Sequence record: PZ402301.1
Source: a phage
Reading direction: 5' to 3' (one strand)
Length of the DNA stretch: 64,000 nt
The first letter of the stretch is position 1, and every line of letters begins with the position of its first letter. The position numbers were made by a program, and so were the translations under genes. This document shows positions 45,017-47,902 of the stretch, in pieces. Below the pieces are notes generated by a model. That model saw nothing but the letters and a program-made list of their open reading frames with translations, was not told where the DNA came from and searched no databases.

Positions 45017-45046
45017 AAAAAGCCCCAACCTTTCGGTCGGGGCTAA
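45017..45046. repeat. 30-bp direct repeat copy A (hairpin-forming) downstream of the IP-like gene
   Basis: aaaaagccccaacctttcggtcggggctaa, identical to 45571-45600. Confidence 0.9.
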
Positions 45047-45050
45047 AATG

Positions 45051-45524
45051 TTATTTGATTTGTTTAGCAGACCAAATGCGGTCTTTAATAATTTTTTGGA
45101 TGTCTTCAACATACTCAAGAGAGTGAGCATGTGGATTATCTTTGAAACTATAAGCACGAGCTAGTTTTTGGCCTTCAGTTTTGATTACTAAAAGCTCTTT
45201 AAGGATAGCTTCATATTTAGCGATAATTCCTTTAACAATATTTTTTTCTTGTGCAGCTTTAGGATCTGCTTTAGGAGCAGGTTTACCCGAAGCCTTTGCA
45301 AAAGCAGCACCAGTAGCAACTAAACTTTTCCAGGCCATACTAACCGCATTTCCTGTAAATCCTTCTGCTTTCATGTCGCGAGCAAACTGGAATCGTGATT
45401 CGTCAGAAGCATCTTTATAGGAATATTTACCCGCTGCAATGGCTGCTTTTGCGACAGCTTGAATTTCGGTGCTAGATGCTTCATTTAACACCGCTTCATT
45501 TAAAAATTGAGCATATGATTTCAT
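45051..45524 (-). CDS. Internal-protein-like protein (N-terminal capsid-targeting-like sequence MKSYAQFLNEA)
   Basis: 157 aa, Ala/Lys-rich; late promoter TATAAATA 37 nt upstream; flanked by 30-bp direct repeats. Confidence 0.55.
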   Translation of the reverse strand: MKSYAQFLNEAVLNEASSTEIQAVAKAAIAAGKYSYKDASDESRFQFARDMKAEGFTGNAVSMAWKSLVATGAAFAKASGKPAPKADPKAAQEKNIVKGIIAKYEAILKELLVIKTEGQKLARAYSFKDNPHAHSLEYVEDIQKIIKDRIWSAKQIK

Positions 45525-45560
45525 CTTATTTCCTGTTTTAATTCGTGATTTATACTACTA

Positions 45561-45568
45561 TATTTATA
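45561..45568 (-). promoter_or_regulatory. Late promoter core TATAAATA for the IP-like gene 45051..45524
   Basis: tatttata on plus strand, about 37 nt upstream of the ATG. Confidence 0.55.
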
Positions 45569-45570
45569 CT

Positions 45571-45600
45571 AAAAAGCCCCAACCTTTCGGTCGGGGCTAA
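45571..45600. repeat. 30-bp direct repeat copy B (hairpin-forming) upstream of the IP-like gene
   Basis: aaaaagccccaacctttcggtcggggctaa, identical to 45017-45046. Confidence 0.9.
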
Positions 45601-45604
45601 GCCT

Positions 45605-45905
45605 TGCGGCAACCTTGTCGGGGTTCCACCTGCTAAGGCAAGTGTTTGTACGAAACGCCGGGATTCGAACCCGGTTATTAAGCAGTTGACGCTACTCAAT
45701 ATTTTTTAAAAGGCCATATCTCGACCATATCCGAACGTTCCGTCAAAAACGCTACTCGGCTTACGGCAAAGATATTTCCTCGAATCGATAATTCTGTGCG
45801 CCGTTTCTGCTGTGATGTAAGGGGATATTAACAAATCGTAAAGATTTATTAAGACCAGTCCTTACGCAGGGAACATCAGTCCGACGACTTACCGGTAGCG
45901 ACCCG
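45605..45905 (-). ncRNA. Structured non-coding region, possibly small stable RNAs (T4 rnaC/rnaD equivalents)
   Basis: No convincing ORF; contains a tRNA-like T-arm (ccgggattcgaacccgg at 45658-45674) and several hairpins; position matches T4 species 1/2 RNA genes near tRNA-Arg. Confidence 0.3.
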
Positions 45906-45910
45906 GTTTC

Positions 45911-46261
45911 TTAGTATTCTTTTAAAGCATCAACCTGTTCACGACGTTTACGCCATAAATCAATTACTTCATGCACAGATTCAGCATTTCGAATTGGACG
46001 GCATTTATATAAAGACTTATGATTTTGATATTGTGTAGATAACGGAATTTTATCTAAAAGGTCTTTACGTTCAAAATATTCGTAACCATCTAAACCAAAT
46101 GAACGATTTTTGAGAAATTGCCAATGACCATATTCGTTTTCGACATAAACATAATCTGCATGCTGATAAAGTAAATTAATTACACGTTCAGAAATAACAG
46201 TGTCATTATGATTAAAATAGAATGTTAAATCATGAACTACTAAATAAACATTACCTTTCAT
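45911..46261 (-). CDS. Hypothetical protein
   Basis: 116 aa; ATG with strong SD GTGAGGAAAAT. Confidence 0.45.
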   Translation of the reverse strand: MKGNVYLVVHDLTFYFNHNDTVISERVINLLYQHADYVYVENEYGHWQFLKNRSFGLDGYEYFERKDLLDKIPLSTQYQNHKSLYKCRPIRNAESVHEVIDLWRKRREQVDALKEY

Positions 46262-46279
46262 ATTTTCCTCACTTATAAT

Positions 46280-46355
46280 TGGTCGAGGCAGTAGGGATCG
46301 AACCTACGACCTAGGACTTAGAAGGTCCTTGCTCTTCCTTCTGAGCTATGCCTCG
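46280..46355 (-). tRNA. tRNA-Arg (anticodon UCU)
   Basis: Manual fold of reverse complement: acceptor CGAGGCA/TGCCTCG, anticodon loop CUUCUAA, T-loop TTCGATC, encoded CCA. Confidence 0.8.
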
Positions 46356-46438: not shown

Positions 46439-46525
46439 TGGTGGGGAGTGATGGAGTCGAACCACCCGAGTCGCAATGACAATGGATTTACAGTCCACAC
46501 CGCTACCTCTACGGGATAACTCCCC
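46439..46525 (-). tRNA. tRNA-Tyr (anticodon GUA), long variable arm
   Basis: Manual fold: acceptor GGGGAGT/ACTCCCC, anticodon loop CUGUAAA, 87 nt with extra arm, CCA. Confidence 0.75.
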
Positions 46526-46621: not shown

Positions 46622-47104
46622 TTATTTTATGTAATATTTATTTAAAAACTTTCTAGCTTGAGTATGGCTAACATTTATAGCGTTTGCATAATTTTTAATA
46701 AAACCTCGTTCATCCATATTAAAATTTTCTAATATTTTTAATCGTCTAGTTATCTCATCTTGACTTAAGGTACTTGCATTATTTTTAGAAATTTTTTCTA
46801 AGGACTGCGCCGAGTGTTTTCGACCATTAAAATTAAAATTTTTAGATTTTGGAGGAAATCTAGCATTTAGTCTCGCATCTTTTGTATTTTGATTATTAGT
46901 TGCGCAATATATGTTATTTAATGAATATGGTCCTTTATCGCCGAAACGGCACATGCAATATTCATGACCCTTTCTTCCACGCTTATCATAATTTCCCGTT
47001 GATTTCCACCAATGCAGCCATTCATCAAAAGTTAAATTCCATTCAATGTTTCTACGTATAGCAGAATTCCGCTGAGAAATATATTTTGCATAATCTTCTT
47101 TCAT
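46622..47104 (-). CDS. Homing-endonuclease-like protein (NUMOD3-type motif, C-terminal HTH-like tail)
   Basis: About 160 aa; NGRKHSAQSLEKISK resembles NUMOD3; C-terminus NVSHTQARKFLNKY parallels the segB-like ORF; catalytic domain type unclear. Confidence 0.5.
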   Translation of the reverse strand: MKEDYAKYISQRNSAIRRNIEWNLTFDEWLHWWKSTGNYDKRGRKGHEYCMCRFGDKGPYSLNNIYCATNNQNTKDARLNARFPPKSKNFNFNGRKHSAQSLEKISKNNASTLSQDEITRRLKILENFNMDERGFIKNYANAINVSHTQARKFLNKYYIK

Positions 47105-47151
47105 CACAAATTTCTCTACTTATTCAATACACTGAGCTAAATCAGCAAAAC

Positions 47152-47247: not shown

Positions 47248-47856
47248 TTATATACTGTTAATTTGATTTAGAATTCTTTTTGCTTGAGTATGACTTACTC
47301 CAATATGCTTAGCATATTTATATAATTCACCACGCTTAGAAAAATCATATAATTTAGAAATTTCTATTCTTCTTTTTCTTTCATCCGCAGAAACTTTTGC
47401 TTCGTTTGCTTTTGCTATTTTACGTTTAGCTTCTTGAGAATGAGTTTTACCAGCAAAGCCATTCTTCATTAATCCATTTGAAGACCATCCTTTTAATTTT
47501 CCATTAGAATGAGCCTTTTTAACACCCAATGAAATTAATTCGCGTTGCTGATCTGTCATAGGATAATTATTTATATGGTCCCATCCACCTTCACCGCCAA
47601 GTTTTAAATTATACACATCTGGTCTATTTAAAAACTCTTCTGTGACAATATTTTTCTCGGCTTCAAGCATAGATTCTTTATCATCAAAATACTCTAATAT
47701 TTCTTTAGAGAAATTTTCTATACCATACTTGTCTTGGGCTCTTTTTAATAATTTACCAGAACCCATATATCCATCATCTAAATTTTCGGTAGAATGCACA
47801 CCAATATAAATTTTATTATTAATTTTATTTGTTATTTTATAAAGATAAAAATGCAT
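47248..47856 (-). mobile_element. segB: GIY-YIG homing endonuclease gene (SegB-like) inside the tRNA cluster
   Basis: Start taken at MHFYLYKITNKINNKIYIGVHST (GIY-YIG core); NUMOD3-like GKTHSQEAKRKIAKA; C-terminal HTH-like tail; T4 segB also sits in the tRNA cluster. Confidence 0.7.
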
Positions 47857-47902
47857 ATCAGTCCCTAATAAAGAACTGAGCGTCTCACGACGAGTCATAA
47901 AT

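What the first reader, a model, noticed from the sequence alone, without database searches (positions are those of the whole stretch)
45605..45905. 300-bp structured non-coding region with a tRNA-like T-arm but no complete tRNA
Between the IP-like cassette and ORF 45911..46261 there is no credible ORF. The region contains ccgggattcgaacccgg (a perfect tRNA T-stem/loop on the minus strand) without a recognisable D or anticodon arm, plus additional hairpins. It is a candidate for small stable RNAs (T4 has rnaC and rnaD near tRNA-Arg) or a decayed tRNA.
Basis: partly seen in the sequence, partly recalled or inferred. Interest (0 to 1): 0.35.

Follow-up and report, generated by a model that had tools for sequence, protein, structure and literature searches.

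The report
T4 rnaC and rnaD small RNAs
This stretch holds this phage's copies of two small stable RNAs known in phage T4 since the 1970s, with no known function; comparing relatives shows that one of them is tRNA-shaped, with two long arms joined by complementary loops.

Summary
The window is a T4-like (Tequatrovirus) tRNA region read on the minus strand. Window 45914..45795 is the orthologue of T4 rnaD (species 2 RNA). Window 45788..45649 is the orthologue of T4 rnaC (species 1 RNA), identical to T4 at 137 of 139 positions plus one inserted A. A conserved trailer and an intrinsic terminator (45598..45570) follow. The motif ccgggattcgaacccgg (45658-45674) is rnaC's T-arm.

It is not a decayed tRNA and not coding. 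rnaC keeps 138-141 nt in ten genera of T4-like phages. In several genera it sits inside tRNA arrays at tRNA-like spacing.

Covariation supports a cloverleaf-like fold:
- The mature 5' end pairs with the 3' end as an acceptor stem stacked on the T-arm.
- A roughly 65-nt arm sits where a D-arm would be.
- A 10-bp arm sits where an anticodon arm would be.
- Their hexaloops (UUGACG and CGUCAA) are exact complements and change together in Marfavirus (UUGGCG and CGCCAA). This suggests a kissing-loop lock.

rnaD has invariant ends and a variable apical hairpin. Neither RNA is in Rfam. The feature is known and its function is not; a tRNA-mimic role is inferred.

The parts
45795..45914 (-). Orthologue of T4 rnaD (species 2 RNA), about 120 nt. 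Its first bases overlap the stop codon (45911-45913) of the upstream 116-aa ORF.
   Evidence: Aligns to T4 rnaD over query positions 4-118. 735 phage records hold a match. The covariation model is 97.4% paired, against 28-46% for slid controls.
45891..45907 (-). rnaD hairpin A: ACCGG / loop GUCGCUA / CCGGU.
   Evidence: The closing pair is A-U in 17 copies, G-C in 2 and G-U in 1. On the plus strand the same bases were flagged as a terminator-like site.
45796..45888 (-). rnaD body. Closing stem GUCGUCG (45888..45882) pairs with CGGCG-AC (45803..45796). Helix Px is 45875..45872 with 45811..45808. Stem S is 45865..45861 with 45821..45817. The variable apical hairpin is 45852..45828.
   Evidence: The Px pair is U-A in 12 copies and A-U in 7. 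Stem S has 3 pairs with changes on both sides. The closing stem never varies, so it is untested. The apical hairpin is replaced by three unrelated hairpins in different lineages.
45789..45794 (-). 6-nt spacer (GAAUUA) between rnaD and rnaC.
   Evidence: T4 has AAAUUA at the same place.
45649..45788 (-). Orthologue of T4 rnaC (species 1 RNA), 140 nt, tRNA-shaped.
   Evidence: 137 of 139 positions identical to T4, plus one inserted A. Scores 154.8 bits with covariance model R1. The single-sequence minimum-energy fold equals the covariation model, z = -4.0.
45781..45787 (-). rnaC acceptor-like stem, 5' strand (CGAUUCG). It pairs with 45657..45651 (CGUUUCG); the two middle positions are U.U.
   Evidence: All 5 Watson-Crick pairs are kept in 29 of 29 distinct copies. 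R4-Y is G-C in 16, A-U in 12 and G-U in 1. In phage PM2, C2-G becomes A-U and both U.U positions become U-A.
45711..45780 (-). rnaC central long arm, in the place of a D-arm. Base AGG/CCU, then helices P3 and P4, then hairpin H1.
   Evidence: P2 is 100% paired. H1 is 100% paired with all 5 pairs covarying. P3 and P4 are 89% paired, with 8 and 2 covarying pairs.
45741..45746 (-). Hexaloop L1, UUGACG, capping the central arm.
   Evidence: Exact reverse complement of L2. It is UUGGCG in the Marfavirus copies.
45702..45710 (-). A-rich single-stranded linker (UUUAAAAAA) between the central arm and arm H2.
   Evidence: AAAA(A)U is conserved in nearly all copies; predicted unpaired.
45676..45701 (-). 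rnaC arm H2, 10 bp, in the place of an anticodon arm, capped by hexaloop L2 CGUCAA (45691..45686).
   Evidence: 94.8% paired, with changes on both sides in 9 of 10 pairs. L2 is CGCCAA in the Marfavirus copies.
45658..45674 (-). rnaC T-arm: CCGGG / UUCGAAU / CCCGG.
   Evidence: Unique in the window. The stem is 100% paired; its middle pair is G-C in 14, U-A in 13, A-U in 1 and G-U in 1.
45599..45648 (-). Conserved 3' trailer with a 7-bp hairpin (45644..45638 with 45633..45627) and small hairpins. Presumably removed during maturation.
   Evidence: Almost identical in T4. It follows rnaD directly in Dhakavirus, which lacks rnaC. The fold covering the trailer and the terminator together (45566-45648) has z = -4.5.
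45570..45598 (-). Intrinsic terminator of the tRNA/rnaD/rnaC transcription unit: a 10-bp stem with a GAAA loop and a U run.
46280..46355 (-). tRNA-Arg (UCU), the last tRNA gene of the array upstream of rnaD.
   Evidence: In T4, rnaD follows tRNA-Arg after 1 nt.

Best explanation
The region encodes, on the minus strand, this phage's orthologues of the two T4 small stable RNAs. They are rnaD (species 2, about 120 nt) and rnaC (species 1, 140 nt). They lie at the 3' end of the tRNA transcription unit, followed by a trailer and an intrinsic terminator.

Shown here:
- Base-for-base homology to the annotated T4 RNAs.
- A conserved length of 138-141 nt for rnaC.
- A covariation-supported fold for rnaC. 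Its 5' end pairs with its 3' end in a 7-bp acceptor-like stem, which has two conserved U.U positions and abuts a canonical T-arm. From the same four-way junction come a roughly 65-nt arm where a D-arm would be and a 10-bp arm where an anticodon arm would be.
- The two hexaloops, UUGACG and CGUCAA, are exact complements and change together.
- In other genera rnaC sits between tRNA genes with 5-14 nt spacers.

Inferred:
- rnaC is cut out of the polycistronic transcript by the host tRNA-maturation enzymes, with RNase P at the 5' end and endonuclease plus exonuclease trimming at the 3' end. This is because it presents the acceptor/T-arm unit those enzymes recognise.
- The loop-loop kiss locks the two long arms into a compact body with no free anticodon.
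- The RNA therefore acts as a non-decoding tRNA mimic that binds or diverts a tRNA-recognising host or phage protein.
- rnaD is a separate structured RNA, with invariant ends and a free-to-vary apical hairpin. Its sequence-level conservation points to a specific partner.
For: Identity:
- The T4 record annotates rnaC and rnaD next to tRNA-Arg.
- The window aligns to both, at 137 of 139 positions for rnaC.
- 680 phage records cover at least 80% of the region.

Not a tRNA, and not in Rfam.

Structure of rnaC:
- RNAalifold predicts the fold independently; 23 of 38 pairs have compensatory changes.
- My structure is 98.5% paired, against 33-49% for slid controls, with 16 pairs changed on both sides.
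- On 29 distinct copies that include three more genera, the acceptor, P2, H1 and T helices are 100% paired and the kissing helix is 99.4%.
- In PM2 the acceptor stem compensates at three further positions.
- L1 and L2 are complementary in all 28 unique copies. The pair at 46-102 is A-U in 25 and G-C in 4 of the 29 copies. A mixed pair of loops would lose nearly all duplex energy.

Position in tRNA arrays.

rnaD fold.

No conserved ORF.

Literature:
- Both were classed as late RNAs by RNA-seq, with a Northern blot made using an RNAC probe (PMC9697503).
- One convergent SNP in rnaD arose in all three lines of a T4-like phage adapting to E. coli ECOR34 (PMC12685909).
Against: - No experiment here shows that the window's RNAs are made or processed.
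- The exact mature ends are carried over from the T4 annotation and could be off by a base or two. RNase P measuring 12 bp from the T-loop would cut one base further in.
- The kissing interaction rests on one compensatory event (the Marfavirus clade) plus invariance elsewhere. In PM2 only 4 of the 6 pairs remain.
- The T-loop sequence is not canonical in the Kanagawavirus-type copies or in Serratia phage LC53 (Winklervirus). Recognition through the T-loop therefore cannot be universal.
- No CCA is encoded.
- The tRNA-mimic function is inference only. From my own knowledge, T4 deletions that remove the tRNA region are viable on laboratory strains.
Confidence: 0.85

Rival explanations
1. A decayed tRNA gene (pseudogene): a former tRNA that kept its T-arm and is drifting.
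For: A canonical T-arm is present and ARAGORN reports an abnormal tRNA-???. The element lies in a tRNA array, so an origin from a tRNA gene is plausible.
Against: Length is held at 138-141 nt in ten genera, and every helix is kept by compensatory change, including the parts that are not tRNA-like. T4 makes it as a stable RNA (PMC3014915, PMC9697503). The acceptor pairing ARAGORN uses shows no compensatory change and is broken in 12 of 26 copies at one pair.
Confidence: 0.03
2. One or more small protein-coding genes, as many GenBank records annotate ('hypothetical protein') across this stretch.
For: Mechanical ORFs of 42-54 aa overlap it. Many deposited genomes list hypothetical proteins here.
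Against: No frame is open in all homologues. Single-base length differences shift the frames. Substitutions fall in base-paired partners. There is no Pfam or PHROG support for a protein here.
Confidence: 0.02
3. Mainly a cis-acting element. On this view the structures are processing, stability or termination signals of the tRNA operon, or regulators of neighbouring genes, and not RNAs that act in trans. This is the reading of the BW1 evolution paper.
For: The trailer and terminator clearly act in cis. rnaD lies right behind an mRNA (ORF116) in this phage. PMC12685909 interprets its SNP as regulatory.
Against: rnaC occurs on its own between tRNA genes in other genera, with no trailer or terminator. 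rnaD occurs without rnaC in Dhakavirus. Both accumulate as discrete stable RNAs in T4 (PMC3014915, PMC9697503). A cis signal would not need 140 nt of covarying structure at a fixed length.
Confidence: 0.08
4. rnaC is the shorter tRNA-like unit that ARAGORN drew (45648-45743), preceded by a 45-nt leader. The internal ACGGAACG would be the acceptor 5' strand.
For: In T4-type copies this pairing is nearly perfect, and it is 89% paired overall.
Against: It has no pair with changes on both sides. Three pairs are unpaired in some copies: one in 12, one in 7 and one in 3 of 26. The same bases form hairpin H1 and loop L1, where all 5 stem pairs covary. The pairing of the 5' end covaries (A-U with G-C, plus the PM2 changes). 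The mature 5' end annotated in T4 lies at the start of my model.
Confidence: 0.04

Closest known systems
Bacteriophage T4 rnaC (species 1 RNA) and rnaD (species 2 RNA), annotated in NC_000866 at 70908-71046 and 71053-71171
   Same: Direct orthologues: same order, same strand, same spacer, same trailer and terminator. rnaC differs from T4 at 2 bases plus one inserted A. The conserved 5' and 3' parts of rnaD are identical.
   Different: A 116-aa ORF (PHROG 3355) lies between tRNA-Arg and rnaD here, so the 5' end of rnaD overlaps a stop codon instead of following tRNA-Arg by 1 nt. The apical hairpin of rnaD differs in sequence. The tRNA set upstream differs from T4's.
Canonical tRNA (Rfam RF00005)
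   Same: A four-helix junction, a 7-bp stem joining the 5' and 3' ends and stacked on a 5-bp T-stem with a UUCGAAU loop, a place in tRNA gene arrays at tRNA-like spacing, and probably the same maturation enzymes.
   Different: Twice the length. The arm in the D-arm's place is about 65 nt, and the arm in the anticodon arm's place has 10 bp and a 6-nt loop that pairs with the other arm. There is no anticodon and no encoded CCA. The acceptor stem has tandem U.U. It fails the Rfam tRNA model.
tmRNA and other tRNA-like RNase P substrates (phage phi80 M3 RNA, plant-virus tRNA-like structures, bacterial YrlA Y-RNA-like RNAs)
   Same: These are non-decoding RNAs that present an acceptor/T-arm mimic to tRNA enzymes; several are RNase P substrates (review PMC11143913).
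   Different: No sequence or covariance-model similarity. ARAGORN finds no tmRNA here and no Rfam family matches. There is no tag reading frame and no Ro-binding stem. The intramolecular kiss between two long arms is not a feature of those families as far as I know.
Six-base kissing-loop complexes (for example HIV-1 TAR-TAR* and ColE1 RNA I/RNA II; from my own knowledge)
   Same: Two hairpin loops pair through all six, or nearly all, loop bases.
   Different: Here both loops belong to one RNA, and the interaction would close a tRNA-shaped molecule instead of joining two RNAs. An intermolecular (dimer) reading is not excluded.

Membership tests
T4 rnaC (species 1 RNA) | Sequence homology to T4 70908-71046 over the full length | tested here: met
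   137 of 139 positions identical, plus one inserted A. Scores 154.8 bits against a model that includes T4.
T4 rnaC (species 1 RNA) | Location at the distal end of the tRNA transcription unit, on the same strand, followed by the conserved trailer and terminator | tested here: met
T4 rnaC (species 1 RNA) | Accumulates as a discrete stable RNA of about 140 nt during infection | not testable with these tools
   Reported for T4 in the literature (PMC3014915, PMC9697503). There are no expression data for this phage.
T4 rnaD (species 2 RNA) | Sequence homology to T4 71053-71171, lying immediately upstream of rnaC | tested here: met
   Aligned over positions 4-118. The 5' 44 nt and the 3' 20 nt are identical or nearly so, and the middle is diverged.
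tRNA (Rfam RF00005) | Scores at or above the family's gathering threshold (29 bits) | tested here: not met
   No tRNA hit in 45600-45915 at the gathering score. The best clan match is tRNA-Sec at 16.8 bits, E = 2.6.
tRNA (Rfam RF00005) | T-arm with a 5-bp stem and a UUCRANY loop | tested here: met
   CCGGG/UUCGAAU/CCCGG, with the stem covarying. Some relatives have a non-canonical loop.
tRNA (Rfam RF00005) | Anticodon arm with a 5-bp stem and a 7-nt loop holding an anticodon | tested here: not met
   The arm in that place has 10 bp and a 6-nt loop CGUCAA that is complementary to L1. ARAGORN's 'anticodon' is two bases long.
tRNA (Rfam RF00005) | Acceptor stem of 7 bp formed by the 5' and 3' ends, with a 3' CCA | tested here: inconclusive
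   A 7-position stem is present and covaries, but 2 of its positions are U.U. No CCA is encoded. Addition of CCA after transcription cannot be tested here.
tmRNA | tRNA-like domain together with a tag-peptide reading frame | tested here: not met
   ARAGORN reports no tmRNA in the window, and there is no tmRNA hit in Rfam.
Any curated Rfam 15 family | A match at the gathering score | tested here: not met
   Only the 8 ordinary tRNAs of the window pass. Every match in 45400-46300 up to E = 10 scored far below its family's gathering score.

The most novel reading that the evidence does not exclude
rnaC could be the founding member of an uncurated family of phage RNAs: tRNA-shaped molecules with no anticodon, held closed by a kiss between the loops of the arms that stand where the D-arm and anticodon arm would be. 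On this reading they are matured like tRNAs. They serve as a decoy or inhibitor for a tRNA-directed host factor, such as a defence nuclease, a tRNA-modifying or repair enzyme, or RNase P itself. rnaD would be a second structured RNA that a host-specific barrier senses, or that counteracts such a barrier. The convergent rnaD SNP that raised virulence on E. coli ECOR34 hints at this (PMC12685909).
Probability: 0.15. Interest if true: 0.75.

Novelty: already known. Interest (0 to 1): 0.35.

Why it matters
As a feature it is ordinary. Any Tequatrovirus is expected to carry rnaC and rnaD, and T4's copies have been annotated for decades.

It still matters for three reasons:
- Their function has been unknown for about 50 years.
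- They are absent from Rfam. In deposited genomes the stretch is usually left unannotated or labelled as hypothetical proteins, 'tRNA-OTHER' or odd tRNAs.
- The comparison made here gives concrete, testable structure. That includes an acceptor stem formed by the true 5' end, conserved tandem U.U, and two complementary hexaloops that covary. It also gives a distribution: rnaC alone inside tRNA arrays of at least eight other genera, and rnaD alone in Dhakavirus.

Together with the reported adaptive SNP in rnaD, this makes targeted mutants and host-panel tests straightforward to design.

Tried and rejected
- Rfam at the gathering and permissive thresholds found nothing beyond the ordinary tRNAs.
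- ARAGORN's tRNA-??? was rejected as a model because its acceptor pairing does not covary.
- Literature searches for the 1970s-80s work (species 1 RNA, p2Sp1, Miller 2003) failed because those papers are not in the held library. Statements about RNase P processing of the species 2-species 1 precursor therefore rest on my memory and on inference.
- Three pattern scans for more distant rnaC relatives found no new family members:
  - A scan of IMG/VR by loop motifs gave 26 new loci, and none matched the model at E up to 1.
  - About 66 IMG/VR loci from the end-motif scan that were not rnaC also gave nothing: one weak hit (15.2 bits, E = 0.42), judged chance.
  - A scan of 185,579 bacterial and archaeal genomes by end motifs gave 98 matching stretches. 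The 80 returned as loci, all from unrelated high-GC taxa, scored at most 22 bits, against 89-159 bits for true members.
- BLAST of rnaD plus rnaC against 5,426 complete E. coli genomes found no match.
- I considered that L1 and L2 (TTGACG on either strand) might be promoter -35 boxes. I rejected this because both change together in Marfavirus and there is no suitable -10 box.
- I considered pairing between the rnaD loop A (CGCUAC) and rnaC (GUAGCG). I rejected it as probably chance, because each RNA occurs without the other and keeps the motif.
- The apical hairpins of rnaD could not be scored in one alignment because the three variants are not alignable.

Full report
**What is there**

The window is part of a T4-like phage genome. 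ARAGORN and Rfam find eight ordinary tRNA genes on the minus strand between 46280 and 48142. They are Gln, Leu, Gly, Ser, Met, Tyr, Asn and Arg. The stretch in question lies just downstream of them on the same strand.

It is unique in the window and absent from all 100 shuffles, even with two mismatches allowed. Read on the minus strand it is a textbook T stem and loop.

No tRNA model accepts the surroundings. Nothing passes at Rfam's gathering score. The permissive scan gives only a tRNA-Sec match of 16.8 bits, E = 2.6. ARAGORN reports a 96-nt 'tRNA-???' with a two-base anticodon.

**Identity**

BLAST of 45540-45910 against 50,697 phage records finds 806 records, and 680 of them cover at least 80% of the query. 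Nearly all are Escherichia, Shigella, Yersinia or Salmonella T4-like phages.

The T4 reference record annotates two misc_RNAs directly downstream of tRNA-Arg. They are rnaD (species 2 RNA, 71053-71171) and rnaC (species 1 RNA, 70908-71046). The window aligns to both.
- Window 45788..45649 matches T4 rnaC at 137 of 139 positions, plus one extra A.
- Window 45911..45796 matches T4 rnaD positions 4-118.

With the T4 ends carried over, the layout on the minus strand is:
- rnaD: 45914..45795
- spacer GAAUUA: 45794..45789
- rnaC: 45788..45649
- trailer: 45648..45599
- intrinsic terminator: 45598..45570

One difference from T4 is a 116-aa ORF (45911..46261, PHROG 3355, function unknown) between tRNA-Arg and rnaD. 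It is common in T2-type relatives.

**What is known**

The literature I could read says these RNAs come from the T4 tRNA region and that their role is unknown (PMC3014915).

RNA-seq classed both as late RNAs. A Northern blot with an RNAC probe accompanied that classification (PMC9697503).

In an evolution experiment with the T4-like phage BW1, a single SNP in rnaD arose in all three lines adapting to E. coli ECOR34. It accompanied a large gain in virulence (PMC12685909).

The original papers from the 1970s and 1980s are not in the held library.

**Not coding and not a dead tRNA**

Mechanical ORFs of 42-54 aa overlap the stretch, and many GenBank records call them hypothetical proteins. No frame is open in all homologues, and one-base length differences shift the frames.

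The conservation pattern is that of a structured RNA, as the next sections show.

**Distribution**

rnaC alone occurs in nine genera besides Tequatrovirus and Mosigvirus, and in one unclassified phage:
- Karamvirus
- Gelderlandvirus
- Kagamiyamavirus
- Kanagawavirus
- Marfavirus
- Moonvirus
- Winklervirus
- Mosugukvirus
- an unclassified Citrobacter phage

These are documented.

In several of these it sits inside the tRNA array, mostly next to tRNA-Trp. It is 5-14 nt from the neighbouring tRNA genes, which is the same spacing as between tRNAs.

rnaD alone occurs in Dhakavirus, where the T4-type trailer follows it directly. Both occur together in Tequatrovirus and Mosigvirus. The two RNAs are therefore separable modules.

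Searches outside this group found nothing:
- A covariance model built here found no further members among about 66 unrelated IMG/VR loci picked by end motifs. The one weak hit (15.2 bits, E = 0.42) was judged chance.
- It found none among 26 loci picked by loop motifs.
- A scan of cellular genomes by end motifs gave 98 matching stretches. The 80 returned as loci scored at most 22 bits, against 89-159 bits for true members.
- Complete E. coli genomes hold no match to rnaD plus rnaC.

**Structure of rnaC**

All 28 unique copies are 138-141 nt long.

RNAalifold on a MAFFT alignment of 26 distinct copies predicts a four-helix junction, and 23 of its 38 pairs show compensatory change. The minimum-energy fold of the window's copy alone gives the same picture, with z = -4.0.

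Counting pairs for the structure I propose gives the following:
- 98.5% of cells are paired, against 33-49% when the partners are slid.
- 16 pairs show changes on both sides.
- No shuffle out of 500 reaches the observed values on four of the five measures, and 1 of 500 does on the fifth.

On a model-fitted alignment of 29 distinct copies with three more genera, the results by element are:
- Acceptor-like stem, positions 2-4 and 7-8 with 132-133 and 136-138 in the window's numbering: 100% paired. R4-Y is G-C in 16 copies, A-U in 12 and G-U in 1.
- The two middle positions of that stem are U.U in 28 of 29 copies. In Pectobacterium phage PM2 they become U-A, and C2-G becomes A-U.
- The AGG/CCU base of the central arm: 100% paired, with A-U becoming U-A in PM2.
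- Hairpin H1: 100% paired, with all five pairs covarying.
- The 10-bp arm H2: 94.8% paired, with nine pairs covarying.
- T stem: 100% paired, with G-C in 14 copies and U-A in 13 at its middle pair.

ARAGORN's alternative uses the internal ACGGAACG as the acceptor strand. It has no compensatory change and is broken in 12 of 26 copies at one pair. Those bases belong instead to H1 and its loop.

**The loop-loop pairing**

H1 is capped by UUGACG (45746..45741). H2 is capped by CGUCAA (45691..45686). These are exact reverse complements.

All 28 unique copies keep the complementarity. In the four Marfavirus-type copies the loops are UUGGCG and CGCCAA, a change on both sides.

The chance that two given hexaloops are fully complementary is about 2 in 10,000. 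A mixed pair of loops, one old and one new, would lose nearly all duplex energy in one combination.

In PM2 only four of the six pairs remain. The evidence is therefore one compensatory event plus invariance. That is good but not conclusive. An intermolecular reading, in which the RNA forms dimers, is not excluded.

**How rnaC probably works**

What is shown is the architecture and the genomic placement.

What is inferred is the following. Because the 5' and 3' ends form an acceptor stem stacked on a T-arm, and because the gene sits in tRNA arrays at tRNA spacing, the RNA is most likely cut out by the host tRNA-maturation enzymes. RNase P accepts many tRNA-like substrates (review PMC11143913). 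From memory, a dimeric species 2-species 1 precursor was described as such a substrate.

The kiss would tie the two long arms together. That leaves no anticodon-like loop free, so the RNA cannot decode. I read it as a tRNA mimic that engages some tRNA-recognising protein.

Points against a simple version of this:
- The T-loop is not canonical in the Kanagawavirus-type copies or in Serratia phage LC53 (Winklervirus).
- No CCA is encoded.
- The exact 5' end could be one base off from what RNase P geometry would predict.

**Structure of rnaD**

Twenty distinct copies share a 5' part of about 44 nt and a 3' part of about 20 nt that are almost invariant. The middle comes in three unrelated versions, each of which folds into a hairpin.

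A model with hairpin A, a closing stem between positions 25-31 and the 3' end, a short helix Px and stem S is 97.4% paired, against 28-46% for slid controls. Five pairs show changes on both sides. One is U-A against A-U at 12 to 7 in Px; another is A-U against G-C in hairpin A. The closing stem never varies, so it is untested.

Such strict conservation of sequence, beyond what the fold needs, suggests a specific partner. I cannot say which.

**Verdict**

The finding is real. The window holds orthologues of T4 rnaC and rnaD.

What this analysis adds:
- A covariation-backed fold for both RNAs.
- The complementary, covarying hexaloops of rnaC.
- The distribution across genera.
- The observation that neither RNA is in Rfam.

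The function remains open.

Noticed in passing
window 45021-45044 and 45575-45598 (minus strand): Two identical copies of the 24-nt terminator hairpin AGCCCCGACCGAAAGGTTGGGGCT flank the 157-aa ORF 45051..45524 (PHROG 2280, function unknown). A perfect T4 late-promoter box TATAAATA lies at 45568..45561, right after the upstream copy. This looks like a gene cassette bounded by repeated terminators. It also explains the two-piece BLAST hits spanning about 900 bp.
   Followed up: partly
window 45911-46261 (minus strand): A 116-aa ORF (PHROG 3355, no Pfam match) lies between tRNA-Arg and rnaD. It is absent from T4 and present in T2-type relatives and in Mosigvirus. Its stop codon lies inside the first bases of rnaD, so here the rnaD 5' end must be cut out of an mRNA tail and not from a tRNA trailer.
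   Followed up: partly
window 47251-47898 and 46625-47107 (minus strand): A GIY-YIG (Seg-like) homing endonuclease gene sits between tRNA-Gly and tRNA-Ser. A 161-aa ORF (PHROG 16521) that shares the endonuclease's C-terminal region sits between tRNA-Ser and tRNA-Met. Mobile-element genes are interleaved with the tRNA array at places different from T4's segB.
   Followed up: partly
L024 and L025 (Dhakavirus), L131-L134: These genomes have rnaD followed directly by the T4-type trailer (…GCACCGAACACTTGCC…). This looks like a clean absence of the 140-nt rnaC unit. L129 has rnaD followed by unrelated sequence.
   Followed up: partly
L002, L005, L013 (Kanagawavirus-type) and L136 (Serratia phage LC53): In these rnaC copies the T-loop is UGCAUGC or UGCAUCC instead of UUCGAAU, while the T stem and the rest of the fold are kept. 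The canonical T-loop sequence is therefore dispensable in some lineages.
   Followed up: no
GenBank records under hits H44, H85, H236, H242, H244, H247 and many others: The rnaC/rnaD stretch carries inconsistent annotation in deposited genomes. It is labelled hypothetical protein, tRNA-OTHER, tRNA-Met, tRNA-Phe or tRNA-Ile, or as a terminator or promoter. Only a few records, such as RB6, label rnaC.
   Followed up: no
window 46439-46525 (minus strand): tRNA-Tyr scores only 30.2 bits against Rfam's tRNA model, where the threshold is 29. The other seven tRNAs score 59-73 bits.
   Followed up: no
window 45599-45648 (minus strand): The trailer between rnaC and the terminator is almost invariant between this phage, T4 and Dhakavirus. 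It contains a 7-bp hairpin and a sequence (CCCCGAC…GGUUG) that partly repeats the terminator stem. It may be a processing signal or a third small RNA.
   Followed up: partly
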